Origin: a virus
Lineage: Duplodnaviria > Caudoviricetes
Strand: one strand, 5' to 3'
IMG/VR virus record: IMGVR_UViG_3300005330_000014
Location: 128,001-192,000 of that record
Length of the DNA: 64,000 nucleotides
How positions within the stretch are numbered: position 1 is the first letter of the stretch; each line of letters starts with the position of its first letter. Shown piece by piece: positions 5,636-58,901 of the stretch. The notes beneath the pieces are model-generated. The model ran no database searches and had not been told where the DNA came from. It was given only the letters and a program-made list of their open reading frames with translations. The position numbers were made by a program, and so were the translations under genes.

Positions 5636-6052
5636 TTACCACGGGAGAGCTTCATCTCGATATTCCTCTTCAAGAGATTCTAAGATTTCGTCTATTTCAT
5701 CCGCCTCTGACTTGACAATATTCTTTTTATGTTTAACTGACCTAGATTTTCCTTTATCTTTATCTAAAACAAACATGTCGGTTAGAGGATGATTATGATA
5801 AAAACCAGCTTTTAATTCTTTGTTTATAGGTTTGATTTCAGTATCTAAAATCAGGCTTAAGATATAATAAGATATTCTCCATTTAGAAAAACCGGGGACT
5901 ATCACGGTATTACTCTGACTGAAAGTATTTATTAGGTATGTATTTTTACTTTCGCAACTAAATATTTCTACGATCTCTCCCCAAGACTTATGGAAAGCTT
6001 CTTTAACAGAAAATCTCGCGCCCGGCTTTAGTAATGTTCCAAGATTATTCAT
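5636..6052 (-). CDS. Hypothetical protein carrying the HNHPLTDMF motif
   Basis: 138-aa ORF; motif at 5771-5797. Confidence 0.7.
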   Translation of the reverse strand: MNNLGTLLKPGARFSVKEAFHKSWGEIVEIFSCESKNTYLINTFSQSNTVIVPGFSKWRISYYILSLILDTEIKPINKELKAGFYHNHPLTDMFVLDKDKGKSRSVKHKKNIVKSEADEIDEILESLEEEYRDEALPW

Positions 6053-6139
6053 AGAAATTTTAAATTTGTTTTATAAAACCTTAAATTCAAAATCATGTAA
6101 TTTAAGTAGAATAACATCAAATATGAAAAACAAAAATAA

Positions 6140-6555
6140 ACATCGCGGCAACAGTTAAGACACCACAAGCCTGTCTCGAAAGAGAGTGGACATTAAGGAC
6201 ATTTTTCCGAAAGGCGAACCACGGTACTTCAGGAGCGCGAGCCGTCATTACTTAATGAAAAATTTGCAGAAACTTAGCGGGAAACGCAAGGGCAAAAATC
6301 CTAAACAAGTAGACATAGTTGAAATTATTCTCATAGTTTAATGTAGTTATCTAGCCTAATCCCCGATAAAAAACGGGAAGGAACCTACTGTAATGACGCT
6401 ATATTAAATAATATATTTTATTTGTATTGACCGTAAGGTTTAATATAGTGGACTTTTCATGTTCTAACGAGTTTCCGCAGGGCAATATCATTAAACTTTA
6501 ATAAGGTACAATCAAATAATAAAAACGCAGTTTTTAAACCGTAATGTAGGTTAGT
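6140..6555 (+). ncRNA. Candidate large structured ncRNA (unidentified)
   Basis: ~500-nt ORF-free gap with GNRA-capped hairpins on + (TCTC-GAAA-GAGA, CC-GAAA-GG, ACC-GTAA-GGT) and long-range complementarity CGTCATTAC/GTAATGACG; boundaries approximate. Confidence 0.45.
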
Positions 6556-7527
6556 TTATATATCTGAACCGCCCGGGAAATGATCTTGACAAACAATTAA
6601 TGGATTTCTTTTTGGCGGCGCAGCGTCTAATACTTTTTGTGCAATTATTTTTTCTTGAAGAATCTTTAAATATTTTGCTATATTATTTTTTGCTGCCTCT
6701 TCATATTTCAACTTAAAGAAGTCGATAGTGAAAATAGGAGTCTTTTTATTTAATAATTGAGAATAAATTAGTTGCTGATTACGATAAAATTCTTTTTTAG
6801 GTAAATAGGTTGCATCTCTTTGTATTAATTCCTGATTTTCAACAAAAAGATCAAACGGGCAGCCCAACCGAGACAATCTTAAATTTAAGAAAACATTTTC
6901 TTCTGCGCTTAAAGTTGCGTAATTTAAATCGGCGCAAGTCTCAATTAAACGTTGAATATTTTTAACATAAACCGCCGGGAAATTAAAATGTTCTTCCAAA
7001 AAAGAGGCTGCGTCCCTTGCGTGAACAGTAAATGTTCTATTCTTCCCAGAAAAACGATGTAATAAACAAGCGAGAATAACGCTTGCAGATGATTGCTGCA
7101 CAATACTTGCACAGTATTTATCGTTTTGTTTTAATAGAAAATAATAATAACTTAAATTAAAGTAAGGAGAACTATCGGCATTTGATCGAATCTTATTCCA
7201 TAATGGCTCTAAATCTGAAATAGTAATAGATTTTACTATACATAGCCCTTTAGATAGTTGATTATAAATATAATCCATTTGAGCCACCTTATCTGATGGA
7301 CGAAATTCTTCCATAGCTCTTTTTCTATCGTCTTGCGCTCTATCTAGTTTTAATCGATCAATCGCCATTTTTGCTTCTGGTGTAGTTTGTTCTATTGCTG
7401 TTTGGGCAATTTCAACTTCTTGTGCTTTAACAACCATATATTTCTTTATTTCGTTTTCTTGTATTTTTCTTTGAATTCTTAAATCAAATGTCGTAATTGC
7501 TTTGTGAATTCGTCTAAAAAACTGCAT
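6556..7527 (-). CDS. Hypothetical protein (putative early gene)
   Basis: 323-aa ORF directly downstream of an early-type promoter; no family recognised. Confidence 0.75.
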   Translation of the reverse strand: MQFFRRIHKAITTFDLRIQRKIQENEIKKYMVVKAQEVEIAQTAIEQTTPEAKMAIDRLKLDRAQDDRKRAMEEFRPSDKVAQMDYIYNQLSKGLCIVKSITISDLEPLWNKIRSNADSSPYFNLSYYYFLLKQNDKYCASIVQQSSASVILACLLHRFSGKNRTFTVHARDAASFLEEHFNFPAVYVKNIQRLIETCADLNYATLSAEENVFLNLRLSRLGCPFDLFVENQELIQRDATYLPKKEFYRNQQLIYSQLLNKKTPIFTIDFFKLKYEEAAKNNIAKYLKILQEKIIAQKVLDAAPPKRNPLIVCQDHFPGGSDI

Positions 7528-7536
7528 GATTCCAAA

Positions 7537-7564
7537 ATCCTAGCATCTAAAGAATGAAAGTCAA
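7537..7564 (-). promoter_or_regulatory. Putative early promoter TTGACTTT-N11-TGCTAGGAT
   Basis: Third copy of the motif, 10 nt upstream of the 6556-7527 start. Confidence 0.7.
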
Positions 7565-7632
7565 CTTTTGCCATTTATTTTCTGATTTAATTCAAGAAAT
7601 TTCACGTTTATATAAGATAGAAGGAAAATAAA

Positions 7633-7640
7633 GTGTAAAT
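7633..7640 (+). promoter_or_regulatory. GTGTAAAT motif (putative late promoter)
   Basis: One of seven copies at gene boundaries; immediately precedes the structured segment. Confidence 0.4.
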
Positions 7641-7790
7641 GAGATTGGCAATTAATTGTCCCGCCGCGAGGCAGAACAAAAATCGCTTTATTAAACTTAA
7701 ATGCGAACAAACGGGCCGCTGAACCTTCAAGCGGATGACAAAGCCAATCAAAATCGGCCCGCTTTTCTCAAAATTGACCGATCAAAACAA
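7641..7790 (+). ncRNA. Candidate structured RNA or leader with possible pseudoknot
   Basis: GATTGGC/GCCAATC, GCC-GCGA-GGC, TCGC/GCGA, CCGCT/AGCGG and CGGGCCG/CGGCCCG complementarities within ~120 nt. Confidence 0.4.
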
Positions 7791-7945: not shown

Positions 7946-8821
7946 ATGGATAAAAACGCAATTATTAAGCAGTATGAAACAGTGGCTTATTCTCACCCCG
8001 TTCTTAAAAAACAGGAAGAATATGATTTAATTAAAGGGTATAAAAAAAATGGCGACCCTGCGGCCAAGGAAAAATTAATTAACTCCTATTTGAGAACGGT
8101 TATTAATTTGTCGAAAAAATTCGCACACAATAATAACCTTGACATTTTAGACTTAATTCAATCTGGAATCGTGGGAATTGTGACAGCATTGGATGGGTTT
8201 GATTTAAGTCAGTATAAGAAAATAACTAAAAATACAGGAAGCTTGTTCGCTTTTTGGTGCTATCGCCATATTTTATGTGAGATAGATGCATATTATCGTA
8301 ATAACATTCGTCAAGTAGCTGTTACTTTTACTACAAATAACAGGCTATTTAAAATAAACAATATGTATAAACAAGGTTTATTTAATAAATATGAAACATT
8401 GTATGATGATGCTGTAGTTAAACATATCTCAAAAGAACTTAAATTAAAAGATAAAGAAGTAAAACTATTATTAACTTTATTTAAGCCAGCGGTGGAACTT
8501 GACAGAGAGCCAGAAACTTCTGAAAGCGAACACGATAACCACAATTCAAGTTATCAAGATACTATTCTAAAAGATTATTCTGATAATGAAACCCCGGCGG
8601 ATATTTATGAAAGAAATGAAAAGTATGAAGATTTAATTAGTAAAATTGATAACCTTGATAAAGAAGATCGTTATATTATTCAACATCGTTTTGGAATTAA
8701 TTGCGAAGTAGAAAGTTTGTCTGATATTGGCAAGAAAATCGGATGCTCTACTGGAAATGTGGCCGCGCGGACTAAAAAAATTCAAGATAAGCTGAAAAAT
8801 ATGATTACGACTCAAATCTAA
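7946..8821 (+). CDS. Phage-encoded sigma70-family RNA polymerase sigma factor
   Basis: Region 1.2/2-like (EEYDLIKGY, AKEKLINSYLRTV, DLIQSGIVG, FD, FAFW) and region 4 HTH (IIQHRFGI...SLSDIGKKIG). Confidence 0.85.
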   Translation: MDKNAIIKQYETVAYSHPVLKKQEEYDLIKGYKKNGDPAAKEKLINSYLRTVINLSKKFAHNNNLDILDLIQSGIVGIVTALDGFDLSQYKKITKNTGSLFAFWCYRHILCEIDAYYRNNIRQVAVTFTTNNRLFKINNMYKQGLFNKYETLYDDAVVKHISKELKLKDKEVKLLLTLFKPAVELDREPETSESEHDNHNSSYQDTILKDYSDNETPADIYERNEKYEDLISKIDNLDKEDRYIIQHRFGINCEVESLSDIGKKIGCSTGNVAARTKKIQDKLKNMITTQI

Positions 8822-16425: not shown

Positions 16426-17208
16426 ATGATTGACATACTGGTATTAGATTTTAATAAAGAGCAGGAAAGTATTATCCTGCTTCATTCTATACAGAAATAT
16501 TGTAAGTTTCCATATAGAGTAATATTTTTAGATAATGGCTCAAAAAAGTATTATTCTTATGATTTTCGAGATAAGGGATTTATAGACTACTTAATAGTCA
16601 ATGATAAAAACTACGGATTAGGGATAGGAACAAAGCAATTATTTGAAGCCGCGCAATCTGAGTACTGTTTTTACATACAAAATGATCAATATTTTCATAG
16701 AGATTTTCTAGAAACTGAACTTCTTTATCTACAAAGCGCGATTGATCAGAATTACCAAGGAAAAATAATTAAGTCTGTTTCTATTGCCGGGGATACTTGC
16801 CAAGGGCAATACTCCGAAAGGGCGCATTTAATTAAAGCTAAATTTTACCAATCGTTAGAACCCTTAAGTGAAGGTGGCTGTGGCCCAAAACACAACCTGA
16901 TTTGGAGAGAAGAACAAATCCAAAAGATTTATAAAAATAATAATTATCTTCACTATATCTATCAACATCCGTTAGTGGCGGATAATGGCAAAAGAGCCAT
17001 CCGAGAGAATCCAGACGGCTCCCTGTGGCAGCATGAGCCTGATTCCAAACGTCTTTGGTTATTGAATGGTCCAGTTAAGGAAAAGTTTGTTTATCCTTAT
17101 TTTACTGATGAAGAATGGGATAAAGTATTAGAAACTCAAACTTGGGCACCCGGGGTCGTACCCGAACGAGAACAAAACTCTTCATTTATAGTTCCACATT
17201 GGCATTAA
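16426..17208 (+). CDS. GT-A fold glycosyltransferase (GT2-like)
   Basis: VIFLDNGS, NYGLGIGTKQLFEAA, FYIQND. Confidence 0.75.
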   Translation: MIDILVLDFNKEQESIILLHSIQKYCKFPYRVIFLDNGSKKYYSYDFRDKGFIDYLIVNDKNYGLGIGTKQLFEAAQSEYCFYIQNDQYFHRDFLETELLYLQSAIDQNYQGKIIKSVSIAGDTCQGQYSERAHLIKAKFYQSLEPLSEGGCGPKHNLIWREEQIQKIYKNNNYLHYIYQHPLVADNGKRAIRENPDGSLWQHEPDSKRLWLLNGPVKEKFVYPYFTDEEWDKVLETQTWAPGVVPEREQNSSFIVPHWH

Positions 17209-17214
17209 AACAAT

Positions 17215-18033
17215 ATGTTTAGTATCTATTCTAGTTTATTCAATCTAAAATCTTTTGATATTGATTATCAATTCATTCTTAAGAATTGGGCGGATTTCAT
17301 TGGTTATCGTGGGGAAATTGTAATTGCAATCAATAATTCTTATGAGGATGACGGATATACTACCCAAAAGATAGTTACTTTGTCGCAAAAATACCCAATC
17401 AGAGTAGTTTATACAAATATTCCTTATAGTAAAAATACATTTGATGGAGATATTAAGAATGCCGCGCTACAGGCAACTAGCGATAAATTTCCTTTAAAAA
17501 TACAAATGGATTTTGACGAAGTAATTCCTTCATTTAGCCGCCCGCTTTGGGATGAAGTAGCAGACAAATTACTTAATTCTCCATATGAAGCAGTTTTTGT
17601 CCCAAGTATTGATTTGTATGGAGGTGAAACTCAAATTCGTAAAAATCATAATATTGGTCTAAAATGGAGAATTCATAAGAGAGGGTTAAAGCGTGGAGTT
17701 TGGCGCGGGGCTAAATTAGATAAAGGATTAATTGCTACCGACCGTTCGGATACATGTGAACTTTTATCCCCCGATGACGAATTAGTTCCTACTATTAATA
17801 TTACGCCGCCCGACTTCCTTAAGCCTGAAAATTCTCATAACCTAAGAGATAAAATTTATACTTTTCATTTAGGATATTTAAACTTAGCTCGTCGTCAAAA
17901 GCTAAATGAAGATTTTTGGTCTAAAAAATGGTCTGAACGCAGCGGAAAACCAGAAAATGTTATTATAGATTTAGAAAAACTTAAAAGAGAAGATACGGTT
18001 CCCCATAATTTGCCTCTTTGGGATAAAATTTAA
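17215..18033 (+). CDS. GT-A fold glycosyltransferase-like
   Basis: GDIKNAALQA, IQMDFDE (DxD), FHLGY. Confidence 0.65.
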   Translation: MFSIYSSLFNLKSFDIDYQFILKNWADFIGYRGEIVIAINNSYEDDGYTTQKIVTLSQKYPIRVVYTNIPYSKNTFDGDIKNAALQATSDKFPLKIQMDFDEVIPSFSRPLWDEVADKLLNSPYEAVFVPSIDLYGGETQIRKNHNIGLKWRIHKRGLKRGVWRGAKLDKGLIATDRSDTCELLSPDDELVPTINITPPDFLKPENSHNLRDKIYTFHLGYLNLARRQKLNEDFWSKKWSERSGKPENVIIDLEKLKREDTVPHNLPLWDKI

Positions 18034-18056
18034 GATAAAAATTATATACTCTAGTC

Positions 18057-18302
18057 ATGATACTAGATCGTAAATTTTTTAAATATCAGGTAATTGATAA
18101 AGCCACCGGACGCGAAGTTAAGTTACCGGAAAATTGCATATTAGATTATGTCAACGATAAAGAAGGAATGGTATGCTTTAAGAGTGTAGATAGTTTCACT
18201 AAAAGAGTGGTAAATCCCATGACTCATGAAGAATATGATGTTACGACTCCCGTTTCATATCACGTAAAATCGGCGGAAATTGAAATAATTTCACTATATT
18301 AA
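18057..18302 (+). CDS. Hypothetical protein
   Basis: 81-aa ORF. Confidence 0.6.
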   Translation: MILDRKFFKYQVIDKATGREVKLPENCILDYVNDKEGMVCFKSVDSFTKRVVNPMTHEEYDVTTPVSYHVKSAEIEIISLY

Positions 18303-18305
18303 TTC

Positions 18306-19055
18306 ATGAGTTTACCAATTTCTCTACTTTTTGCTACTACTACTAAGGGTCATTTTGATAGACGCTATATTTATAGTTCCACTCTCCAAGATTGGGAAGC
18401 TCAAAAACATTTAGATATTTTCTCATACAAACGCGCACATATCAAGAATGGCAAAGAGGATGCTAATTGGACGGCAGAAGGAATGAGAGAAGATATTTTA
18501 TCTTATGATTTTAATGAAGTTTTAATTACTGAAGGTAATTTTAAACATTTTGATGCCAGTCACTCAATCGGTCAACTTCAAGATATAGGAACTTTAATCG
18601 AAAATATTCCCACTCCTTATATTTTCTTTCTTGAAGATGATTTTTTGGTCAGAGCTAAGAATAATAATTTAGAATTTCATATTAAACAATCAATTGAATT
18701 ATTGGAATCAAATGAGGGTGTATCTCAAGTTAGAGTTCCCCGGCATTTTAATGATTTCCCTCATTATAAAACTTTGCATCGCTGTCATAATGGTTGGTTA
18801 AGTCAAGATGATATTTTCAGTTTTAATCCATATATCGCGCGGACAAGTGATATTGTTAAATTATATAACTCAGTAGCCGTGCAACAAGATTTGATTATTG
18901 GATTAATTAACCAAGGAATATTAAACTCGGAATTAACTTTCACAAACTTGGCCCGCCAACTTCGCGGCCCTTATTCATTTTGGTCTTTTGGTAGCTCGAA
19001 CATTCAATGCTATCACATTGGAACGAAACAGGGAGAAGAAGATAAATTAGATTAA
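18306..19055 (+). CDS. GT-A fold glycosyltransferase-like
   Basis: YIFFLEDDF, FSFNPYIAR, CYHIG. Confidence 0.65.
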   Translation: MSLPISLLFATTTKGHFDRRYIYSSTLQDWEAQKHLDIFSYKRAHIKNGKEDANWTAEGMREDILSYDFNEVLITEGNFKHFDASHSIGQLQDIGTLIENIPTPYIFFLEDDFLVRAKNNNLEFHIKQSIELLESNEGVSQVRVPRHFNDFPHYKTLHRCHNGWLSQDDIFSFNPYIARTSDIVKLYNSVAVQQDLIIGLINQGILNSELTFTNLARQLRGPYSFWSFGSSNIQCYHIGTKQGEEDKLD

Positions 19056-19058
19056 TTT

Positions 19059-19523
19059 ATGCTTAATCCTAAAATTCGATTAATTATTAAAAATGCTTTC
19101 AAAGACACTACTTACTTTGGAAAAAGTATAATTATTTCACCAGATCAATTTCAGTCAGATTTAATTTGGAAAGAAGTAAATAGTATTCTGCCTACTTGGA
19201 TGCTTAGTCAGTCAAAATACTCGGCTATCAAGGAAATAAGATTAAAAAATCAGCATACTTTAATTTTTATCACCGATAGAAATCCTGATTATCTATGTGG
19301 ATATCGGGCAAATATAGTTTATCTAAACAAAATCACAAATCCTGAAACAATCCAACTAATCGCGCGGCCTTTGTTATCTGTTCAATTTAACCCAGTAGAA
19401 CAAGAAAAAACAAATGAATTTGAAAATGAATTGATTAGATTGGGGATTTATGATGAATCCGACCGAACTAAATTTCCACAACCCAAACTAATTAATTTAG
19501 ACGAATTAGGCATTTTACTATAA
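19059..19523 (+). CDS. Degenerate fragment resembling the middle of a terminase large-subunit ATPase domain
   Basis: IIISP..QS..IW.E...LP.W, EIRLKNQHTLIF, NPDYLCGYRANIVYLN resemble the terminase coupling region; no Walker A; Walker B DE replaced by NK. Confidence 0.4.
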   Translation: MLNPKIRLIIKNAFKDTTYFGKSIIISPDQFQSDLIWKEVNSILPTWMLSQSKYSAIKEIRLKNQHTLIFITDRNPDYLCGYRANIVYLNKITNPETIQLIARPLLSVQFNPVEQEKTNEFENELIRLGIYDESDRTKFPQPKLINLDELGILL

Positions 19524-19525
19524 CT

Positions 19526-19885
19526 ATGATTAACCTCTTAATTGATGAAGGGTATTACGTTGATTTTCTAAGTATTTTAGAAGTCAAGTTGTTAAAATCT
19601 GATGACAAAACGCGCGACTCACTTTCCAAACAATTTCTTTTTTATTCTAATTCTTTAGGCGAACAAATTGGAGATTCAAAACTCGAAGAAATTCTCGACA
19701 GCGTTCTTTATAAAAAACTAAAAGATGTTAATCAAATTCTTTTTGAGACGATAGATAATTGTAAGAAGTATCAAATTGATGCGCGCACGATTGACGCAAT
19801 GAACCATACTCGCTGGATTTTAAAGAACGAAATACAAAGAACATTTTTTGGTAAATCTACGGGGGAAGTTAAAATAGGATATTAA
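19526..19885 (+). CDS. DUF6165-like protein
   Basis: DFLSILEVK, LKDVNQILFETID, NHTRWILKNEI pattern. Confidence 0.5.
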   Translation: MINLLIDEGYYVDFLSILEVKLLKSDDKTRDSLSKQFLFYSNSLGEQIGDSKLEEILDSVLYKKLKDVNQILFETIDNCKKYQIDARTIDAMNHTRWILKNEIQRTFFGKSTGEVKIGY

Positions 19886-19888
19886 AAA

Positions 19889-20533
19889 ATGGTTTTTCCT
19901 TTTGTTGTTTACGGTAAGAATCGTTCTAATGATGTTTTAGAATGGCATAAGAAAGTATATGACCGTTTGGGAATCGCGATGAATTATTTTGAATTTGATT
20001 TCCCTTATATTTCTCATGGCAACGCTATTGATCAAGTCATTCATTCTTTAATTAATGGCGGAAACTGTCCCGATTACTTTATAATCAGTGAAATTGATAG
20101 TATTCCTTTAAGATTTGATACTTTTGGCGATCTATATAAAAAAGTTGAAGACAAGCAAACAATAGCGGGCGGATTTCATCAGAGCAATCATTTAACCAAA
20201 GCAGATGGAACTTGTAATCGGCCTTATATCAGTCCTTCCATGCATATGATTTCAACAAAATTATATAATGATTTAGGGCGACCAAGCTATGACCACGGCG
20301 GGGATTGTGATTGCGCCGAATTAGTAACTAAAGTAGCTCAAGAAAAAGGATATTGTATAGCTGGAATTTGGCCGCGCGCAGTAGATCAACCTATGTATGA
20401 TTTAGGGAATGGTTTAAAATTTGGATTTGGAACGACCTACGGGAATTACTATTACCATCAAATGAATTCGAGTCAAGATGGTCATGTAGAAAATTTTATA
20501 GCTAAATGCAAAGAAGTAATACAAAATAACTAA
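19889..20533 (+). CDS. Glycosyltransferase-like protein
   Basis: SHGNAID, SEIDSIPL (xDxDxxPL-like), YYHQ. Confidence 0.5.
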   Translation: MVFPFVVYGKNRSNDVLEWHKKVYDRLGIAMNYFEFDFPYISHGNAIDQVIHSLINGGNCPDYFIISEIDSIPLRFDTFGDLYKKVEDKQTIAGGFHQSNHLTKADGTCNRPYISPSMHMISTKLYNDLGRPSYDHGGDCDCAELVTKVAQEKGYCIAGIWPRAVDQPMYDLGNGLKFGFGTTYGNYYYHQMNSSQDGHVENFIAKCKEVIQNN

Positions 20534-20715
20534 AAAATTAATATGCTAGATTCGGGAATACAACAAATCAGTGACTATATGACTTCAATTGGAGATGATG
20601 ACTATATTTTAGATGATTATACGATAATTGATGGGGAAGTAAGATTAATAGCGACTTGTACGCAGGGAGAATTACATCCCGATTCTTACGACGAATTTGG
20701 TTATCCTATTTAATT

Positions 20716-21384: not shown

Positions 21385-21385
21385 C

Positions 21386-21985: not shown

Positions 21986-21986
21986 T

Positions 21987-24748: not shown

Positions 24749-24754
24749 CTAATT

Positions 24755-42726: not shown

Positions 42727-42799
42727 CTCTTTAAATAAGTATTTGGTATTGCGTCGCAGTTTTTATTACAGGTAATTACTGTGGTTAGCTCGCATCACC

Positions 42800-51561: not shown

Positions 51562-51569
51562 GTGTAAAT
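51562..51569 (+). promoter_or_regulatory. GTGTAAAT motif (putative late promoter)
   Basis: ~25 nt upstream of 51593. Confidence 0.45.
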
Positions 51570-51592: not shown

Positions 51593-52024
51593 ATGAAAAT
51601 AAGAGAATTAGTAGTTTGTTTGTTTTGTTGTTTGGTGATTGGTTGCGCGGGCACTAATTCCCAGCAAGGAAACAAAAAAATGTTAGTTAGATTAACAACA
51701 TACAGTAGGGATGAAAAGTTACCCAAAAAACATCCTGATAAATGGAGTCGGCATGGAATATCGTCCACAGGAATCCCTTTAAAAAATATGCAAAGTGCGG
51801 CAGTAGACCCCAAAGATATTGCTTATTTTAGTAAAATTCAATTACCATGTTTCAATCATTTTGTTTTAGCTCAAGATACGGGATCATGGGTGAAAAGTAG
51901 GCGCGCGGCTTTGCGATTAGGTAGGAATTGTCCGGTTATTGATTTATTCTTTGATAGAGAAAGGGACGCGGCAGCTTTCCGTCGGCGCAACCCCTTATTT
52001 ATGGAAGCGGTGATAATAAACTAA
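51593..52024 (+). CDS. 3D-domain (MltA-like) cell-wall lytic protein, predicted lipoprotein
   Basis: Lipobox VIGC; LTTY, AAVDP, AQDTGS, VIDLFF = three conserved Asp. Confidence 0.8.
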   Translation: MKIRELVVCLFCCLVIGCAGTNSQQGNKKMLVRLTTYSRDEKLPKKHPDKWSRHGISSTGIPLKNMQSAAVDPKDIAYFSKIQLPCFNHFVLAQDTGSWVKSRRAALRLGRNCPVIDLFFDRERDAAAFRRRNPLFMEAVIIN

Positions 52025-52049: not shown

Positions 52050-52346
52050 ATGCTAACTCGAATATATTGTGGTAAAAAATATAAAATCAGCGAAGAGTTC
52101 TTAACTGACCTGTATAGGAATGTTATTTTTACTCCCGAAATCCCAACAACGGGAAGTTCCCATTTTAAGAAAGATTTTTTAGGTTGTCGTTTATCCCCAC
52201 CAATCCGTAATGCCTTTGGTGAAACAAGTCTTCTTTTTTTTACAAAATCGTATTTAAAAAAAGTTTTAGAGCCGATTTCTAAAAAAGATTATAAAAAATC
52301 TAAGAAACATAATCACCCATTAACTGATATGTTTTGTGTAAAATAA
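52050..52346 (+). CDS. Hypothetical protein ending in HNHPLTDMF
   Basis: Motif at 52308-52334. Confidence 0.65.
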   Translation: MLTRIYCGKKYKISEEFLTDLYRNVIFTPEIPTTGSSHFKKDFLGCRLSPPIRNAFGETSLLFFTKSYLKKVLEPISKKDYKKSKKHNHPLTDMFCVK

Positions 52347-52350: not shown

Positions 52351-52680
52351 ATGGAAAAGCCAAATTTGAATCTGGAAGATATGCTGTTTTGCCTAGTTCC
52401 GTTATGTAGTCACTACAATCAGCCTTGGGAAGACTATTTACCTGAACGTTATAAAAATTACTTATTTAAGATAGATAGAGTAATTGAACACCCTGTAGAG
52501 AAGGCAATTTTAGAATTATCGTCCATCCCTGACCCGTCTTTAGAGGAAATAGATTTAGCAACTAATACGCGACCCAAATTGGTTATCTCGTATCAGCAAC
52601 TATTCAAATATTTTGAAGCAGTTGATTTGCAAATAATTAGACATAATCACCCCCTGACCAATATGTTTACTTTTAAATAG
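52351..52680 (+). CDS. Hypothetical protein ending in HNHPLTNMF
   Basis: Motif at 52642-52668. Confidence 0.65.
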   Translation: MEKPNLNLEDMLFCLVPLCSHYNQPWEDYLPERYKNYLFKIDRVIEHPVEKAILELSSIPDPSLEEIDLATNTRPKLVISYQQLFKYFEAVDLQIIRHNHPLTNMFTFK

Positions 52681-52725: not shown

Positions 52726-55700
52726 ATGGATAAGGTAACTTGCATATTTGGCAGTCATTATAGCTTCAGCGGTTCTAGCATTCTCACGGTTGACGAAGCA
52801 GAGGAAATTAATGAATCTAAACCAGTTTCGGTTTTTTCTATAGCTAAACACTACGAACTAAAAGACGTATTTTTAGCAGACAAAACATTAAGTGGCTTAA
52901 TTGATTCGTATAATGCCGCCGGGAAAATCGGAATCAATCTTCATTTTGGTTTTAAAGTCATTTGTTGCGAGGATATAAATGACAAAAGCGAAAAATCATT
53001 TGAAACTGAACATAAGATAATTGTTTGGTTAAATGATTCGCGCGGCTACGTTAATTTTGTCAAATTGGTTTCAAAGGCACAAATTGACGGGTTTTATTAT
53101 ATCCCCCGCGTGGACAAGAATCTTTTGAAGGAATTTTGGTCGGAACACCTTTCCATCTCAATCCCCTTCTATGATTCCTTTATTCATAAAAATACCTTAG
53201 AGTTCGGCAAGTGTGTTCCCGAGTTTCCCGCCGCCCCAACCCTATTTATAGAAAATAATGGGCTGCCATTCGATGACTTGCTAAAGGAACGGGTTTTAGA
53301 ATATGGCAAAAGCGAAAATCTAGAAATTGTCAATTCTAAATCAATTTACTATTATAAAAACGAAGATTATAAAGCTTATTTAGTAAATAAAGCAATTAAT
53401 AAACGAACAACTTTAGAAAAACCTAACTTAGAACATAATAGCTCAGATCAGTTTTCTTTTGAATCCGCGCAGGAAATTGGAATTGATTACGAAAATAAGT
53501 CAAAGTTTTCTCAATCATTTTCTAAATATAATTTACCGTTTTATGGTATCCGCCTCCCAAGCGTCGATATTACTTCGGAAATTAGAACCAAAATTGGCGC
53601 GAAAATTGATGATGACAATTATACTATTCTAAAAGCTTTATGTGTTACCGGCTTCAAACGAAGAATTGCTGATGGCACAATTCAAGACTCTGAAACTCAA
53701 TGGTATAAAGATAGAATCAAACACGAATTAAAAACGCTAAAAACTCTTGGGTTTGTTGATTATATCCTAATTGTTTGGGATATGGTTAACTTTTGCCATG
53801 ATAACAAAATCCCAGTCGGGCGAGGTAGAGGCTCGGCAGCGGGCTCGGCAGTTTTGTATTTACTGAATATTACTGATATTCCAGTCAAAAGGCATGGACT
53901 TTGGTTTGAACGATTCTTGTCAGCGGATCGCGCGGCGGTAATTATTAAAGATGGTATTTCGTTTTTGCAAGATTCACCTGACGTAGATCAAGACGTTTCC
54001 CGCTCACAAAGATACAAAGTAGTTGACTATTTAAATAAAAAATATCCGGGGCAAACTTCTAAAATTCTCAATATATCAACCTTACAAGGGAAAGTATTAA
54101 TTAAGGAAGTTGCTAAATGCGTGGATAATTGCGAGCAAACTGAACTTAATTTAATTACTGATTTGATTCCAGTAGAGTTCGGGAATGTTGCCGATATTGA
54201 AAGAACGTATAATGAAAATCCTGATTTCAAAACTTGGTGCGACAATCATTCCGAATCTTATAAAATTGCTTTAAAATTGCGTGGACTCGCTAAAAATGTG
54301 TCCGTTCATGCTTCTGGCTATTTAATTACTCACTGTCAAATTAATGAATTTATTCCAACACAACTGACCGCCGATAAAGAGATAGTTAGTTCTTTTGATA
54401 TGTATTCCGCCGGGAATATTGCGGTTAAGATTGATTTGCTTGGATTGAAGACTTTAGATATTTTAGATACGGCTGGCAAATTATGCGACAAACCTTTTGA
54501 TAAAATAAACATTGATGATCCAAGTATCTATAAGTACTTATCAAATCCTGAAGCCCCTTTTATGGGTATATTTCAGGCGGAAGAAGGATTAGGAGAAAAA
54601 ACTTTAAGAAAAATCAGTCCTGAAAAGATTGATCATATTATTGACTCTATTGCAATTGGTCGCCCGGGCGCTATGCGATACACCCAAGACTATTGCGATT
54701 TCAAAACTAAAGTTAAATTTCCTAATATTGATCCTCGCGTCGAAGACATTTTGGGGCCGACTGGCGGACTTTTGATATATCAAGAACAACTCATGGCATT
54801 AAGCGTGAGAATGGCAAAGTTTACTCCAATCGAGTCTGGAGGAATTAGAAAAGCTGTTGGCAAAAAAATCAAAGCCAAAATGCTTTCGTATAAAGAAAGA
54901 TTCATTAAACAAAGTATTGAAAACGATTATTCGGAAGAGTATTCAGAAGATATTTGGAAGACTTTTGAAAATAGCGCAGACTATTCTTTCAATCTTAGCC
55001 ACAGTGCAAGTTATGGCTATTTAACAGCTATTACTGCTTATTTCAAAGCTAACCACCCGAAAGAGTTTTTCTTAGCATTACTTAAAAATGCACAAAATGA
55101 ATCTGAACCATTAACTGAAGTAAACAAAATTCAAAAAGAATTAAAATACTTTGGAATCCAACTGTTACCCCCTTGCTTATTAAAAGGCAATATTGATTTT
55201 GTTATTGAGGGAAACGACATTCGGTTTGGTTTGAATTCTATTAAAGGACTTGGTGAAGCAGTAATTGAAAAACTTAATAATTTCCGCCCGGAAAATTGTA
55301 ATAAATTCCAAATGTTTCAAGCCGCGCGGCAAGCTGGATTGTCTTGCGGTGCAATGGCGGCGCTTGTTATGTCCGGCGCTTTGGATATATTTGTTAAAGA
55401 ATCTCGCAGTAAATTATCATTTGAATGCTTACTTTTCTCTAAACTAAAAGACAAAGAAAAACTATTTTGTATTGATAATGCTCCACAGTATAATGATGAC
55501 TTAATTACAATGTGTCAAGATATTCTGAATTGGCATGACTCCCGAGGGAAAAAAGTCGCACGCTCTACCCGTTTAAATACTCTCAGAAAAGAAACTAAAA
55601 AGTATCAAGAAATCTATAGGAATAACAAAGCCAATCAAGCTTTAAGTAACTATTGGTACGAAAAAGAATTACTTGGGTTCGGCTATTCTAGCAATCTAAA

Positions 55701-56142
55701 AACAATATTTAGTGAGTCGGGCAGCCGCACGGACTTAATTAACTTGGAAGAATACCAAAATCTTGACCCTAATAAAACCGGAATCGTTGTTTGTATTGTT
55801 GATGATGTTAAAACTTCAATTTCTAAAAAGGGTAATGCGGTGATGAAATTGTTTGTTAGCGATGAAACTAAATGTAATTACTTTTATTTCGCGGGCAAAT
55901 CTTACCAAGAATATCTATCAGAAAACAAGACGCCACCTAAAGAAAAGGATATTATTGCAATTAAATTAATGAAATCCAAAGATGGAACTTCAGGATTTGT
56001 CCAAAAATTATCCATTCAATCAGTGAAAATCTTCACGAAAATGTCGGAAATTAAGGATGCCCCACTTGAAAACACAGAGGAAAACGAAATAATTGTGCAA
56101 AAAATCGCAGAAAACCCACAAACGGAAATGATATATTCCTGA
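52726..56142 (+). CDS. dnaE: DNA polymerase III alpha subunit (C family) with PHP domain
   Basis: SHYS PHP start, GRGRGSAAGS, FERFL, PDVDQD, HASG, KIDLLGL, IYQEQ, YSFNLSHS, IRFGL..IKGLG, C-terminal OB fold. Confidence 0.95.
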   Translation: MDKVTCIFGSHYSFSGSSILTVDEAEEINESKPVSVFSIAKHYELKDVFLADKTLSGLIDSYNAAGKIGINLHFGFKVICCEDINDKSEKSFETEHKIIVWLNDSRGYVNFVKLVSKAQIDGFYYIPRVDKNLLKEFWSEHLSISIPFYDSFIHKNTLEFGKCVPEFPAAPTLFIENNGLPFDDLLKERVLEYGKSENLEIVNSKSIYYYKNEDYKAYLVNKAINKRTTLEKPNLEHNSSDQFSFESAQEIGIDYENKSKFSQSFSKYNLPFYGIRLPSVDITSEIRTKIGAKIDDDNYTILKALCVTGFKRRIADGTIQDSETQWYKDRIKHELKTLKTLGFVDYILIVWDMVNFCHDNKIPVGRGRGSAAGSAVLYLLNITDIPVKRHGLWFERFLSADRAAVIIKDGISFLQDSPDVDQDVSRSQRYKVVDYLNKKYPGQTSKILNISTLQGKVLIKEVAKCVDNCEQTELNLITDLIPVEFGNVADIERTYNENPDFKTWCDNHSESYKIALKLRGLAKNVSVHASGYLITHCQINEFIPTQLTADKEIVSSFDMYSAGNIAVKIDLLGLKTLDILDTAGKLCDKPFDKINIDDPSIYKYLSNPEAPFMGIFQAEEGLGEKTLRKISPEKIDHIIDSIAIGRPGAMRYTQDYCDFKTKVKFPNIDPRVEDILGPTGGLLIYQEQLMALSVRMAKFTPIESGGIRKAVGKKIKAKMLSYKERFIKQSIENDYSEEYSEDIWKTFENSADYSFNLSHSASYGYLTAITAYFKANHPKEFFLALLKNAQNESEPLTEVNKIQKELKYFGIQLLPPCLLKGNIDFVIEGNDIRFGLNSIKGLGEAVIEKLNNFRPENCNKFQMFQAARQAGLSCGAMAALVMSGALDIFVKESRSKLSFECLLFSKLKDKEKLFCIDNAPQYNDDLITMCQDILNWHDSRGKKVARSTRLNTLRKETKKYQEIYRNNKANQALSNYWYEKELLGFGYSSNLKTIFSESGSRTDLINLEEYQNLDPNKTGIVVCIVDDVKTSISKKGNAVMKLFVSDETKCNYFYFAGKSYQEYLSENKTPPKEKDIIAIKLMKSKDGTSGFVQKLSIQSVKIFTKMSEIKDAPLENTEENEIIVQKIAENPQTEMIYS

Positions 56143-56947: not shown

Positions 56948-57163
56948 TTGTCTCGAACAAGAGTTTTAATGGAAGAACCAATTAAATTACTAACCCGCGC
57001 AGAATGCTCAGAGATTCTTAAATCGCGCGGCTACACGTTAGCAGATTATCCGGGCGTTTGGTTCACTCCTAACGGAGATAAATTAGCTTGGTTTCAAGCG
57101 GTTTGCCAAGAAGGATTAAAATTTGATAGAAAAGACAAACCTTGGATCAAGAAAGAAAGTTAA
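56948..57163 (+). CDS. Small hypothetical protein
   Basis: Co-oriented ORF; start uncertain. Confidence 0.5.
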   Translation: MSRTRVLMEEPIKLLTRAECSEILKSRGYTLADYPGVWFTPNGDKLAWFQAVCQEGLKFDRKDKPWIKKES

Positions 57164-57267
57164 ATATATGGAACCAGACAGAAGAGACGATGGAACGTTA
57201 ATAGTAATATTAGTCATGTTGGGTTTAATGAGTTTGCCATTTGTAATAACGTTAATATATAGATAAT

Positions 57268-57477
57268 ATGAAATACCGAATAATCAAAGATGGCGAAAAT
57301 AAGTATCATATTGAACGCAGAATTTTTATGATTTGGTGGGATGTTGACGACAATCATCCTGTTCATAATAGTGAAACATTGTATTTCCAAAGGATATCAT
57401 CCGCCGAGTTTTATATCAAGCAACTGGAATACGAACAAAATAGAAAATCTGAAATAGTAAAAGAATTAGAATACTAA
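57268..57477 (+). CDS. Small hypothetical protein
   Basis: Co-oriented ORF. Confidence 0.6.
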   Translation: MKYRIIKDGENKYHIERRIFMIWWDVDDNHPVHNSETLYFQRISSAEFYIKQLEYEQNRKSEIVKELEY

Positions 57478-57479
57478 AT

Positions 57480-57758
57480 ATGAACTACTATAAAATCAAT
57501 TATCGTGGCCGCTCTAATTATGGCTGCAATAGTCATAGTTTTTATGAATTGATTGTTGAAGGAGTGTCCGAAAAGGACGCTATATCTAAATTACCTAATA
57601 TTGCTAAATTAGATATTGAATCAGGTCATTCAGTTCTCTCCATAGAGAATGTAGAGCTTGCAAATATAAATGAATATAATAATCAGCTTCGTTTAGCCAA
57701 AGAAAAAGACGAAAAAAGAGTTAAACGATTAATTTGGAATAGTTATCTGAAATCATGA
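57480..57758 (+). CDS. Hypothetical protein
   Basis: Co-oriented ORF. Confidence 0.6.
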   Translation: MNYYKINYRGRSNYGCNSHSFYELIVEGVSEKDAISKLPNIAKLDIESGHSVLSIENVELANINEYNNQLRLAKEKDEKRVKRLIWNSYLKS

Positions 57759-58285
57759 AGGGTATTGTAGCTATTTCAGAAAATTGGGGAATCGGGCGAA
57801 ACAACGTGCTTCCGTGGCCTTCTATAAAATCCGATTTCGCTTGGTTTAAGAAATCCACCCTTAATCAAAGTATTATAGTGGGGCGGACAACCGCCAAAGA
57901 CCTACCCCCGCTTCCCAACCGTTTCATTTATACTTTAAGTTCAAAATATGCTGACCCAAATAACTTAGAAACTGATTTATGGGGCGAGCCAATTCAACGA
58001 ACCTACAATACTAATACCAAAGGTGATTTTTACGTCAATCATTATATTCATAAAATTGAACAAGCCCCGGCGGACTCTTGGTTATGTGGCGGTGCTTCAA
58101 TTTACAAGCAATTCCTTCATTTATGTGATGAATTATATGTAACTCATGTGAATGGAGTTTATGAATGCGATACCTATTTCCCTTTTAGTTTAGTTCAAAT
58201 CACTCATTTATTTCCGTATGTAACAAAAATACATGATTTGGATGGTGGCCATAAAATTGTTAGATATAGTAAAAATGAGTCATAA
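57755..58285 (+). CDS. folA: Dihydrofolate reductase
   Basis: NWGIGRNNVLPW, DFAWFK, IVGRTT, LPNR, GGASIY, CDTYFP. Confidence 0.93.
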   Translation: MKGIVAISENWGIGRNNVLPWPSIKSDFAWFKKSTLNQSIIVGRTTAKDLPPLPNRFIYTLSSKYADPNNLETDLWGEPIQRTYNTNTKGDFYVNHYIHKIEQAPADSWLCGGASIYKQFLHLCDELYVTHVNGVYECDTYFPFSLVQITHLFPYVTKIHDLDGGHKIVRYSKNES

Positions 58286-58577
58286 AAAATTGCCTCAAAT
58301 TAAAAATCCTGAAAATTTTATTGGTTATAAAATCGGTAAATTAGAAGTAATAGGATTTGATAGATTAGAATGGTTTGATTCTATTGGTAGAAGAGAGAAA
58401 AAATTAAAAAATTATATAAATGGACTAGACAGGGTAGATTCTTCTAAGGGTTACATAAAAGATAATGTTGTAACATGTTGCGAAAATTGTAATAGAGCAA
58501 AATTAGATTTAACACAACAAGAATTTTTTGCAATGATTAAAAGTATATATGAAAATCATAATTTATCTACGAAATGA
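58275..58577 (+). CDS. Short HNH endonuclease-like protein, possibly a homing-endonuclease remnant
   Basis: GLDRVDSSKGYIKDNVVTCCENCN. Confidence 0.7.
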   Translation: MSHKKLPQIKNPENFIGYKIGKLEVIGFDRLEWFDSIGRREKKLKNYINGLDRVDSSKGYIKDNVVTCCENCNRAKLDLTQQEFFAMIKSIYENHNLSTK

Positions 58578-58655
58578 TTAGCAATATTCTATATCTTTTA
58601 GGTTCGATTTTCTTTGCGGCGGGCACAATTATTAACATGTTAAAAAATTAAAACT

Positions 58656-58901
58656 ATGGGTGAAAATAATGACTTAACTGAAAAAGAACCCCCAACAAAT
58701 ACTTACACAACGACTTGGAATTACCGTCCTGATTTAGTGGCGGGTCTGAAAGAAATGAATAAATATTATATGACATTTTCTACTGTTTCCACTGCATACC
58801 ATGATGCTGGAGTTTCTCTTGAATCCGTTCATTCTAAAAAAATCAAATCTCACAATCACCCATTAACAAATATGTTTGTAATTGAATCGGCCAAATCATG
58901 A
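58656..58901 (+). CDS. Hypothetical protein ending in HNHPLTNMF
   Basis: Motif at 58851-58877. Confidence 0.6.
   Translation: MGENNDLTEKEPPTNTYTTTWNYRPDLVAGLKEMNKYYMTFSTVSTAYHDAGVSLESVHSKKIKSHNHPLTNMFVIESAKS

What the first reader, a model, noticed from the sequence alone, without database searches (positions are those of the whole stretch)
5771..58877. Shared peptide motif HNHPLT[D/N]MF in four otherwise unrelated small proteins
Seen: HNHPLTDMF (5771-5797, -), HNHPLTDMF (52308-52334), HNHPLTNMF (52642-52668) and HNHPLTNMF (58851-58877). It is within a few residues of the C-terminus in three proteins and in the C-terminal third of the fourth, usually after basic residues. The encoding DNA differs at synonymous sites (CAT/CAC, CCT/CCA/CCC, CTA/TTA/CTG, ACC/ACT/ACA), so conservation is at protein level. 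The rest of the four proteins show no similarity I can see. Inference: a short linear docking, sorting or processing tag that recruits diverse cargo to one partner (virion packaging, a host target, or one of the phage proteases). I know of no described motif like this.
Basis: partly seen in the sequence, partly recalled or inferred. Interest (0 to 1): 0.8.

Follow-up and report, generated by a model that had tools for sequence, protein, structure and literature searches.

The report
Shared C-terminal peptide tag, jumbo phage
Seven small, otherwise dissimilar proteins of an uncultured 208-kb soil phage carry the same nine-residue peptide (HNHPLTxMF) near their C-terminus, and related phages keep it while the rest of each protein changes beyond recognition, so it looks like an address label read by one partner that I could not identify.

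Summary
The whole 208-kb phage genome has seven carriers, four in the window and three upstream. All are 81-138 aa with no Pfam or PHROG family. Chance expectation is about 3e-7 matches. The DNA varies at synonymous sites.

A profile search of 1.84 billion protein clusters found the motif only in these seven plus one 62-aa protein of a related phage. That protein sits in the same slot, just upstream of a ClpP-like gene. A second relative (DnaE 61% identical) has two carriers in matching slots, upstream of dnaE and beside the sigma-factor divergence. Their variants are HKHPLTDLF and YNHPLTDLF. The bodies of all these counterparts are unalignable. The core is [HY]-[NK]-H-P-L-T-[DNT]-[ML]-F with Lys-rich flanks.

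Best reading: a clade-specific short linear docking tag on fast-evolving small proteins (about 0.55). The partner is unidentified. Candidates are the host sliding clamp (LTDMF resembles QADMF), a ClpP-centred protease, and the prohead core, as with the T4 capsid targeting sequence.

Other readers noted the same motif in overlapping windows of this genome. The scan has noted analogous but different shared tags in other phages. I found no paper that describes this motif.

The parts
5636..6052 (-). Carrier P0001 (138 aa). Motif HNHPLTDMF at residues 86-94 (window 5797-5771), followed by a 44-aa Lys-rich then acidic tail.
   Evidence: No Pfam or PHROG family. The positional counterpart R152 in the relative carries YNHPLTDLF.
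52050..52346 (+). Carrier P0002 (98 aa). ...KKDYKKSKK-HNHPLTDMF-CVK, motif at 52308-52334.
   Evidence: The only homolog among 5.8 billion proteins is itself.
52351..52680 (+). Carrier P0003 (109 aa). ...DLQIIR-HNHPLTNMF-TFK, motif at 52642-52668. It lies directly upstream of dnaE.
   Evidence: The relative has R107 (HKHPLTDLF) in the same slot, overlapping the dnaE start by ATGA.
58656..58901 (+). Carrier P0004 (81 aa). ...SKKIKS-HNHPLTNMF-VIESAKS, motif at 58851-58877. Its stop overlaps the start of the ClpP-like gene (ATGA).
   Evidence: The counterpart P0010 (62 aa...KKIKT-HNHPLTNMF-CV) lies upstream of the ClpP gene in a related phage.
52726..56142 (+). DnaE-type DNA polymerase III alpha (1138 aa), downstream neighbour of P0002 and P0003. 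It carries no copy of the motif, and by eye I saw no QADMF-like clamp-binding motif.
   Evidence: 61% identical to the relative's DnaE.
58898..59500 (+). ClpP-family serine protease (200 aa, Ser89/His114/Asp167), downstream neighbour of P0004. It is a candidate partner, not a shown one.
51562..51569 (+). Promoter-like motif GTGTAAAT, 31 nt upstream of ORF 51593-52024. That ORF heads the run of genes containing P0002, P0003 and dnaE. The same motif heads the structural genes.

Best explanation
HNHPLT[DNT]MF is a short linear motif kept by selection. Across the clade its consensus is [HY]-[NK]-H-P-L-T-[DNT]-[ML]-F. It has Lys-rich flanks and is usually followed by a small and then a hydrophobic residue. 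It sits at the C-terminal end of at least seven small, fast-evolving, family-less proteins of a roughly 208-kb phage from rhizosphere metagenomes, probably infecting a Bacteroidota host.

I read it as a common docking ('address') peptide. Each carrier's variable body gives it its own specificity. The shared peptide would lay its Leu, Met/Leu and Phe side chains, positioned by the invariant His-Pro, into one groove of a single partner, so that all carriers reach the same machine.

Shown: the motif exists and is not chance; selection is on the protein; it is confined to this small clade; it persists in positional counterparts whose bodies have diverged beyond recognition; no carrier belongs to a known family.

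Inferred: that it is a binding peptide rather than a modification or cleavage site, and that there is a single partner.

The partner is not identified. My split of the 0.55 is: host beta sliding clamp or replisome about 0.15; a ClpP-centred proteolytic machine, with the tag as adaptor tether or degron, about 0.12; prohead core, as a capsid-loading signal, about 0.08; some other phage or host hub about 0.20.
For: Seven carriers in one genome, where chance expects 2.7e-7. HNHPLT is the most widely shared 6-mer of the proteome.

Synonymous codons vary at almost every degenerate position of the motif.

Carrier bodies show no significant similarity and no Pfam or PHROG family. P0002 and R107 have no homolog among 5.8 billion proteins.

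A profile of the motif region searched against 1.84 billion cluster representatives returns only the seven carriers and P0010. Back-translated pattern scans of IMG/VR, 241 million metagenome records and 185,579 prokaryote genomes give only chance hits. So the tag is specific to this clade and does not copy a host motif.

The motif is kept in three positional counterparts in two related phages. P0010 lies upstream of the ClpP gene. R107 overlaps the dnaE start, and R152 lies beside the divergent sigma-factor region. Only the motif aligns between counterparts, although DnaE is 61% and ClpP 68-71% identical.

The motif is uniform within a genome and differs between genomes. Position 8 is Met in all seven carriers here and in P0010, and Leu in both carriers of the other relative. 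That is what co-evolution with one partner would give.

The flanks are Lys-rich, as around many docking peptides.
Against: No partner was found, so binding itself is not shown.

Eight of nine positions are invariant across seven proteins. That is stricter than most docking motifs and would also fit recognition by an enzyme active site or by the ribosomal exit tunnel.

Weak pairwise hints (P0003/P0004 z=4.4, P0001/P0006 z=3.1) allow that some carriers are very old paralogs. In that case part of the sharing is by descent and not by independent acquisition.

The Met/Leu pattern rests on only two carriers in one relative.

The ClpP linkage is not strict. Three relatives with ClpP 68-75% identical have no small gene upstream of it.
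Confidence: 0.55

Rival explanations
1. The tag is specifically a sliding-clamp-binding motif. The carriers dock on the host beta clamp, since no phage clamp is detectable. This would recruit accessory factors to the phage replisome or to clamp-activated transcription, or would block host use of the clamp, as the C-terminal tails of T4 gp43, gp33 and gp55 do with gp45.
For: The motif is near the C-terminus with basic flanks. The core L-T-D-M-F shares D-M-F with the internal clamp-binding motif 920-QADMF-924 of E. coli Pol III alpha (PMC3201878) and the [LM]-F ending of the consensus QL(S/D)LF (PMC9690074). N-x-x-L-x-x-M-F has the spacing of the PIP box Qxx[I/L]xxFF (PMC9690074). Two carriers lie directly upstream of dnaE, and the one in that slot in the relative overlaps the dnaE start. 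The genome encodes DnaE, a DnaQ-like exonuclease, DnaB and primase, but no DnaN, PCNA or gp45 homolog. The phage DnaE shows no QADMF-like motif by eye. The minimal promoter-like element GTGTAAAT recalls T4 late promoters, whose activation needs clamp-bound gp33 and gp55 (PMC2988020).
Against: The defining Gln is absent. The invariant His-Pro and the [HY]-[NK] positions have no counterpart in known clamp-binding motifs. A Bacteroidales DinB in hand ends in a canonical QLKIDF, so the likely host phylum uses the ordinary motif. Clamp motifs are degenerate, whereas this one is nearly invariant within a genome. No polymerase, ligase or nuclease of the phage carries it; only ORFan proteins do. Four carriers lie in an amidoligase/RNA-repair region and not in the replication module.
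Confidence: 0.15
2. The tag tethers the carriers to a proteolytic machine built around the phage ClpP-like protease, with a host or phage unfoldase. The carriers would be either adaptors, whose variable bodies capture different targets for destruction, or short-lived proteins sharing one degron. The adaptor version works like the SspB XB tail on ClpX or poxvirus PRANC/F-box adaptors.
For: P0004 overlaps the start of the ClpP-like gene (ATGA), and its counterpart P0010 sits in the same place in a related phage. The ClpP-like protein keeps Ser-His-Asp and lies among nucleotide-metabolism genes, not in the head module. Hypervariable bodies with a fixed tail are the expected signature of arms-race adaptors.
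Against: Only one of the seven carriers neighbours ClpP. Three close relatives have the ClpP gene without such a neighbour. About 1.2 Mb around ClpP genes 43-49% identical in 80 other viral contigs contains no such motif. The motif is not at the extreme C-terminus as classical ClpX tags are (my own knowledge), and it does not resemble the IGF/LGF loops that dock on ClpP (my own knowledge). The AAA+ protein at 34078-35145 belongs to a phage/Bacteroidota family placed between helicase and primase, and it has only generic AAA similarity to unfoldases.
Confidence: 0.12
3. The tag is a virion-loading signal. The carriers would be diverse internal or ejected proteins, for example anti-defence factors, that are loaded into the prohead by docking on the scaffold or core and injected with the DNA. 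T4 internal proteins work this way: they share only the capsid targeting sequence.
For: [quoted passage not shown] The carriers are small, hypervariable and family-less. P0002, P0003 and P0004 lie downstream of a GTGTAAAT element of the class that heads the structural genes.
Against: The T4 signal is N-terminal and is cleaved off, whereas this one is C-terminal. Four carriers lie in a minus-strand region without the structural-gene promoter element. None lies in or near the structural module. There are no virion proteomics data.
Confidence: 0.08
4. The peptide is a recognition site for an enzyme and not a docking handle. It would be a cleavage site for a phage protease, or a site of covalent modification by one of the phage's many amidoligase, ATP-grasp, amidotransferase or glycosyltransferase enzymes.
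For: The near-invariance of eight positions suits active-site recognition. The window holds a large glycosyltransferase cluster. His and Thr are invariant and are potential acceptors.
Against: Nothing links any particular enzyme to the motif. Three carriers lie far from the amidoligase region. The relative keeps the tag on R107 and R152 within the 68 kb I could read, but I could not check whether it has the amidoligase genes. The position that varies (D/N/T) is the one most likely to be an acceptor of amide-type chemistry.
Confidence: 0.12
5. The peptide acts in cis as a nascent-chain ribosome-arrest sequence. The small ORFs would be leaders whose stalling tunes translation of the gene just downstream (dnaE, clpP, the RNA ligase gene and others), as SecM, MifM or TnaC do.
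For: Every carrier lies immediately upstream of another gene on the same strand, with gaps from -4 to 143 nt, and two cases are ATGA overlaps. The motif is near the 3' end of the ORF and contains an invariant Pro. The bodies drift freely. A ribosomal partner would explain the strict conservation.
Against: Close spacing is the rule throughout this genome, so adjacency carries little weight. The ORFs are far longer than metabolite-sensing leaders and lack the signal or membrane segments of force-sensing ones. The distance from motif to stop codon ranges from 2 to 72 codons. The property pattern continues after the Phe (small, then hydrophobic), which points to a protein-level interface.
Confidence: 0.05
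6. The carriers are one very old, rapidly diverging paralog family, and the nine residues are simply its best-conserved structural element, with no special shared partner.
For: There are weak pairwise signals. P0003 61-88 and P0004 11-38 share N-[TY]-R-P-[KD]-L-V-x7-K-Y-[FY] (E=0.019, z=4.4). P0001 and P0006 share LKPGxxF near the N-terminus (E=0.05, z=3.1). All carriers are of similar size, and the motif starts at residue 66-108.
Against: Mean z over 45 pairs is 0.11. The spacing between the weak upstream similarities and the motif differs by 17 residues. A buried structural element would not be flanked by Lys-rich, linker-like sequence and tails of variable length. Even under paralogy, the extreme contrast between the frozen peptide and the unalignable bodies calls for a specific constraint on the peptide.
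Confidence: 0.08

Closest known systems
Capsid targeting sequence (CTS) of T4-type internal proteins (IPI, IPII, IPIII and their variable replacements)
   Same: A short conserved peptide is the only thing shared by a set of small, highly diverse, fast-evolving phage proteins, and it hands them all to one partner (PMC3012670).
   Different: The CTS is N-terminal, docks on the scaffolding core and is removed by the prohead protease. This tag is C-terminal, and no virion association or cleavage is known. The sequences are unrelated.
Sliding-clamp-binding peptides: bacterial QL(S/D)LF and Pol III alpha QADMF, the PIP box Qxx[I/L]xxFF, and the C-terminal tails of T4 gp43, gp33 and gp55
   Same: It is near-terminal, has basic flanks and ends in [LM]-F. 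It shares D-M-F with QADMF and has PIP-like spacing. It occurs on several unrelated proteins of one phage, two of them beside the replicative polymerase gene (PMC9690074, PMC3201878, PMC2988020).
   Different: There is no Gln. The invariant His-Pro and the two residues before it are foreign to clamp motifs. It is nearly invariant rather than degenerate. It is carried only by ORFan proteins and not by replication or repair enzymes. No clamp is encoded by the phage.
Adaptor tethering tails and degrons of AAA+ proteases (SspB XB tail on the ClpX N-domain, ssrA-type and MuA-type C-terminal tags). Recalled from my own knowledge.
   Same: A short C-terminal peptide shared by unrelated proteins, read by one proteolytic machine. 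One carrier is translationally coupled to a ClpP-family gene.
   Different: Those tags need the free C-terminus or a long flexible linker and have other sequences. Here 2-72 residues follow the motif, and no unfoldase partner is identified.
Ribosome arrest peptides (SecM, MifM, VemP, TnaC). Recalled from my own knowledge.
   Same: A conserved, Pro-containing C-terminal motif in an otherwise variable upstream ORF placed just before another gene.
   Different: No sensing domain (signal or membrane segment), variable distance to the stop codon, and seven copies in one genome. Nothing shows stalling.

Membership tests
Bacterial beta-clamp-binding motif (QL[SD]LF / QLxLx[LF]) | Gln at the first position of the penta- or hexapeptide | tested here: not met
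   All ten motifs read P-L-T-x-[ML]-F after H-[NK]-H or Y-N-H. There is no Gln at or near that position.
Bacterial beta-clamp-binding motif (QL[SD]LF / QLxLx[LF]) | Hydrophobic [LM]-[FL] end of the motif, in a terminal or linker region | tested here: met
   M-F or L-F in all ten. The motif lies 2-12 residues from the C-terminus in eight of ten, with Lys-rich flanks.
Bacterial beta-clamp-binding motif (QL[SD]LF / QLxLx[LF]) | Physical binding to the hydrophobic pocket of the beta clamp | not testable with these tools
   Needs purified host DnaN and peptide, and the host is not known. The one complex prediction that I ran gave no verdict and is listed only under Tried and rejected.
Bacterial beta-clamp-binding motif (QL[SD]LF / QLxLx[LF]) | Carried by polymerases and by repair and replication enzymes | tested here: not met
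   The six-frame scan finds the motif only in seven ORFan proteins of 81-138 aa. DnaE, the exonucleases, the RNA ligase, the primase and the helicase lack it.
PIP box (Qxx[ILM]xx[FY][FY]) | Q...h..aa pattern read by a PCNA-type clamp | tested here: not met
   The spacing N-x-x-L-x-x-M-F fits, but Gln is Asn or Lys and the aromatic pair is [ML]-F. No PCNA or gp45 homolog is found in the genome.
T4-type capsid targeting sequence | N-terminal position, removal by the prohead protease, presence of carriers in virions | tested here: not met
   The position is C-terminal. Cleavage and virion content cannot be tested here.
C-terminal degrons or XB-type tails of ClpX | The motif ends at the free C-terminus | tested here: not met
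   2 to 72 residues follow the motif.
HNH endonuclease | A beta-beta-alpha-metal fold of some 30-40 residues with spaced His...Asn...His | tested here: not met
   The letters H-N-H are contiguous here. No carrier matches any HNH model, whereas true HNH genes of the window do (58233-58577, 63196-63930).
Sortase-type sorting signals (LPXTG, NPQTN) | N-terminal signal peptide, and a hydrophobic segment plus basic tail after the motif | tested here: not met
   By reading the sequences, there is no signal peptide or hydrophobic C-terminal segment in any carrier.

The most novel reading that the evidence does not exclude
The phage runs its own targeted-degradation system. A family of hypervariable small adaptors each grips a different host protein, for example a defence or takeover target, and uses the invariant HNHPLTxMF handle to deliver it to a protease built on the phage-encoded ClpP. 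This would be a bacterial-virus counterpart of the F-box/PRANC adaptors of eukaryotic viruses.
Probability: 0.1. Interest if true: 0.85.

Novelty: new variant of a known kind. Interest (0 to 1): 0.6.

Why it matters
Short linear motifs are central to eukaryotic virus-host biology, but few are described in phages. The main examples are clamp-binding tails and the T4 capsid targeting sequence.

This phage has a sharply defined tag that selection keeps fixed. It marks a set of ORFan proteins as belonging to one pathway. That gives a handle on seven proteins that have no known family. It also gives a ready bait: one synthetic peptide could fish out the hub they share.

If the hub is the host clamp or a protease, the carriers are probably host-takeover or anti-defence factors. 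If it is the prohead core, they are injected cargo. The scan has noted analogous but different tags in other large phages, so this may be a general way in which big phages organise their fast-evolving accessory proteins.

Tried and rejected
Complex prediction. I folded a Flavobacteriales DnaN (stand-in host clamp, L115:736-1851:-) with P0002 residues 60-98. The result was no verdict (score 0.02, mark 0.34). It counts neither for nor against binding.

Single-sequence AlphaFold2 of P0001 and P0003 gave mean pLDDT 38 and 39, which is unusable. No fold search was run.

ESM Atlas look-ups of R152 and P0007 scored only 0.81-0.89, hitting unnamed viral clusters. Nothing useful came of them.

Homolog searches of P0002 and R107 each found only themselves.

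The near-DNA search of 8 kb against 50,697 phage records found no match. The DnaE protein search found only distant relatives at 28% identity or less. The search for related loci with DnaE found no close relative in IMG/VR.

Exact back-translated pattern scans gave 0 hits in IMG/VR, 8 in metagenome contigs and 9 in prokaryote genomes. All were chance: either a stop codon at the variable position within a sequence conserved in marine Bacteroidetes, or unrelated long ORFs of GC-rich genomes.

Phage clamp. DnaN N-terminal, central and C-terminal domains, PCNA_N, and gp45 N- and C-terminal domains all gave no match at E<=10. A very divergent clamp cannot be excluded.

Population variation for dN/dS. 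The three rhizosphere runs that hold the phage carry the same strain, with one difference in 8 kb, so no test was possible. No RNA holder is listed.

The 13-kb contig with P0010 and the 165-189-kb contigs with ClpP P0018 could not be read because no DNA was served. So I could not count carriers there.

Considered and rejected: HNH nuclease motif, sortase signal, and a DNA-level repeat. The last is ruled out by the synonymous variation.

A full-text search for 'HNHPLT' found no paper.

Full report
WHAT IS THERE

The window is bases 128,001-192,000 of a 208,233-bp virus record, 34% G+C and estimated 95% complete.

They lie in ORFs 5636-6052(-), 52050-52346(+), 52351-52680(+) and 58656-58901(+), which I stored as P0001-P0004.

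A six-frame scan of the whole genome adds three more carriers upstream of the window, stored as P0005-P0007. They lie at genome 100120-100506(-), 119069-119389(-) and 122926-123240(-).

All seven are small, 81-138 aa. The motif starts at residue 66-108, and 3 to 44 residues follow it. Four read HNHPLTDMF, two read HNHPLTNMF and one reads HNHPLTTMF. No larger protein of the phage has the motif.

IS IT CHANCE OR A DNA REPEAT?

It is neither.

From the amino-acid composition of the 359 ORFs, 2.7e-7 exact matches to the eight fixed positions are expected. In 100 shuffles no 6-mer is shared by more than three proteins, against seven observed. HNHPLT is the most widely shared 6-mer of the proteome. 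The runners-up come from true YopX paralogs.

The codons differ at almost every degenerate position: His CAC/CAT, Pro CCA/CCT/CCC, Leu TTA/TTG/CTA/CTG, Thr ACC/ACA/ACT. So the constraint is on the peptide.

ARE THE CARRIERS RELATED?

Not detectably.

- With the motif removed, all-against-all BLASTP gives nothing better than E=0.019.
- Smith-Waterman scores against shuffles average z=0.11 over 45 pairs.
- None of the ten carriers I eventually had matches a Pfam or PHROG family.
- P0002 and R107 have no homolog among 5.8 billion proteins.

A few pairs stand out weakly. P0003 and P0004 share N-[TY]-R-P-[KD]-L-V-x7-K-Y-[FY] (z=4.4). P0001 and P0006 share LKPGxxF near the N-terminus. So some carriers may be very old paralogs. 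Even so, the contrast between a frozen nonapeptide and unalignable bodies stands.

HOW WIDE IS THE MOTIF?

I aligned the motif regions (A1) and searched the profile against 1.84 billion cluster representatives. It returned the seven carriers and one new protein, P0010: 62 aa, ending ...KKIKT-HNHPLTNMF-CV. The two other hits, a plant transposase-like protein and a tail-fibre repeat, are chance.

Exact back-translated scans of IMG/VR, of 241 million metagenome records and of 185,579 prokaryote genomes gave only chance hits. The tag is therefore confined to a small clade. It does not copy a motif of cellular proteins.

RELATIVES

P0010 lies on a 13-kb contig with the same gene order as the window: DnaQ-like exonuclease, small ORFs, DnaE, ThyX, P0010, ClpP. 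So it is the positional counterpart of P0004. Only the last 16 residues align.

Homologs of the ClpP-like protein led to further relatives. I read 68 kb of one of them, a 75.6-kb contig with DnaE 61% and ClpP 68% identical, by walking along it. It has two carriers.

- R107 (107 aa...TTIK-HKHPLTDLF-LPEEKYILTQ) overlaps the dnaE start by ATGA. This is the slot of P0003.
- R152 (152 aa...LIKG-YNHPLTDLF-KPDIKDKK...) lies beside the divergent sigma-factor region. This is the slot of P0001.

In both pairs only the motif aligns.

The core is therefore [HY]-[NK]-H-P-L-T-[DNT]-[ML]-F. Position 8 is Met in all seven carriers here and in P0010, and Leu in both carriers of the other relative.

Three relatives have the ClpP gene without a small gene before it. 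The 1.2 Mb around more distant viral ClpP genes (43-49% identical) has no such motif.

Both were tested and neither was found.

SURROUNDINGS

The window holds these genes:

- a sigma factor (7946-8821)
- ribonucleotide reductase
- a glycosyltransferase and sugar-nucleotide cluster (about 16-29 kb)
- UvsX-like recombinase
- DnaB
- a PF00004-type AAA+ protein
- primase
- nucleases
- a methyltransferase
- a DnaQ-like exonuclease
- DnaE (52726-56142)
- DHFR
- an endonuclease VII/HNH-like protein
- the ClpP-like protease (58898-59500)
- polynucleotide kinase

The outside carriers sit next to genes for an RNA ligase, a TPM phosphatase, a gamma-glutamylcyclotransferase and GATase-like proteins.

Every carrier is followed closely by another gene on its strand. 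That is true of most genes in this genome, so I give it little weight.

No DnaN, PCNA or gp45 homolog is detectable.

Only 33 of 359 ORFs have a Shine-Dalgarno-like sequence. The AAA+ protein's nearest clusters are phage and Bacteroidota. The phage is held by rhizosphere metagenome runs. Together these point to a Bacteroidota host, though that is inference.

A promoter-like element, (A/T)GTGTAAAT, heads the structural genes and also the operon that contains P0002, P0003 and dnaE.

WHAT IT MOST LIKELY IS

The features are those of a short linear motif:

- It is the only constrained element of fast-evolving proteins.
- It lies near a terminus, in Lys-rich surroundings.
- It is uniform within a genome and slightly different between genomes.

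I therefore read it as a common docking peptide read by one partner (confidence about 0.55).

Which partner is open. I considered three candidates.

The sliding clamp. The resemblance is real but partial. L-T-D-M-F resembles the alpha-subunit motif QADMF (PMC3201878) and the [LM]-F ending of QL(S/D)LF. The spacing N-x-x-L-x-x-M-F resembles a PIP box (PMC9690074). Two carriers sit beside dnaE. Against it, the defining Gln is missing, and the invariant His-Pro has no counterpart. A Bacteroidales DinB ends in an ordinary QLKIDF. No enzyme of the phage carries the tag.

A ClpP-centred machine. The conserved P0004/P0010-ClpP adjacency and the ATGA overlap suggest it. But only one carrier of seven shows this, and close relatives lack it.

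The prohead core. The T4 capsid targeting sequence is the best described analogue of a set of diverse small phage proteins that share only a short tag (PMC3012670). But that tag is N-terminal and is cleaved off.

OTHER READINGS

- Recognition by an enzyme, for cleavage or modification: 0.12. The near-invariance and the many amidoligase-type and glycosyl-transfer genes nearby speak for it.
- A nascent-chain arrest sequence: 0.05.
- A mere remnant of old paralogy: 0.08.

WHAT FAILED

- The single complex prediction, a stand-in Flavobacteriales clamp with the P0002 tail, gave no verdict.
- Single-sequence structure predictions were unusable.
- The metagenome runs hold one strain, so no dN/dS test was possible.
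- The DNA of two informative relatives could not be served.
- No paper mentions the motif.

EARLIER NOTES OF THIS SCAN

Two first-stage notes on overlapping windows of this genome saw the same motif (e1-5405865, e1-5405891). My genome-wide scan confirms both and unites them.

Follow-up notes on other phages describe analogous but different shared terminal tags (e1-4772764, e1-831089, e1-5380291, e1-3451693). I did not test those and do not use them as support. They suggest that the phenomenon recurs in large phages.

VERDICT

This is a new variant of a known kind of feature. Interest is moderate to high, because one peptide bait could reveal the pathway that links seven ORFan proteins.

Noticed in passing
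window 7633, 15900, 31890, 37110, 48622, 51562 (+) and 41189 (-); also 16 sites elsewhere in the genome: A promoter-like element (A/T)GTGTAAAT(A) lies 12-63 nt upstream of start codons. It has 23 copies in the genome, and 13 of the upstream regions contain it. It heads the structural genes (genome 1-36 kb and 200-208 kb) and several window operons, including the one with P0002, P0003 and dnaE. It has no obvious -35 partner, which recalls T4 late promoters.
   Followed up: partly
whole genome (359 ORFs): Only 33 of 359 ORFs have a GGAG/AGGA/GAGG within 20 nt of the start, and upstream regions are rich in AACTAA/TAAATAAA instead. This is the pattern of Bacteroidota and their phages. The phage is held by rhizosphere metagenome runs.
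   Followed up: partly
window 58898-59500 (+): A ClpP-family protease with an intact Ser89/His114/Asp167 triad sits among nucleotide-metabolism genes (DHFR, ThyX or ThyA in relatives, PNK) and not in the head module. It is remote from cellular ClpP (best PDB E=1e-10). It has hundreds of viral relatives of about 200 aa.
   Followed up: partly
window 34078-35145 (+): A PF00004-type AAA+ ATPase lies between the DnaB helicase and primase genes. Its best solved relatives are BCS1 and proteasomal Rpt subunits, not DnaC or clamp loaders. The family is common in phages and Bacteroidota. Its role (helicase loader or remodeller) is open.
   Followed up: partly
window 5636-5700 (-), C-terminus of P0001: P0001 ends in an acidic helix, ...EADEIDEILESLEEEYRDEALPW-COOH. 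From memory this resembles the acidic, aromatic-ended C-terminal tails of SSB proteins. The counterpart R152 does not keep it.
   Followed up: no
window 52531-52614 (P0003 residues 61-88) and 58686-58769 (P0004 residues 11-38): Weak similarity N-[TY]-R-P-[KD]-L-V-x7-K-Y-[FY] (BLASTP E=0.019, z=4.4 against shuffles). This is a possible trace of ancient paralogy between two carriers.
   Followed up: partly
window 16426-29022 (+): A cluster of glycosyltransferase family 2 genes, a nucleotide-sugar epimerase and unannotated neighbours. The relative has DegT-type aminotransferases and epimerases in the same place. The cluster may act in DNA or protein glycosylation.
   Followed up: no
window 42653-42727 (+) and seven sites elsewhere in the genome: Eight tRNA genes in all: Met (CAT) in the window, and Gly, Asn, Leu, Cys, Lys, Arg outside it.
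   Followed up: no
window 58233-58577 and 63196-63930 (+): An endonuclease VII/HNH-like ORF overlaps the 3' end of the DHFR gene, and a full HNH-plus-HTH homing-type endonuclease lies further on. Both are probably mobile nuclease insertions in the nucleotide-metabolism module. They are unrelated to the letters H-N-H in the tag.
   Followed up: no
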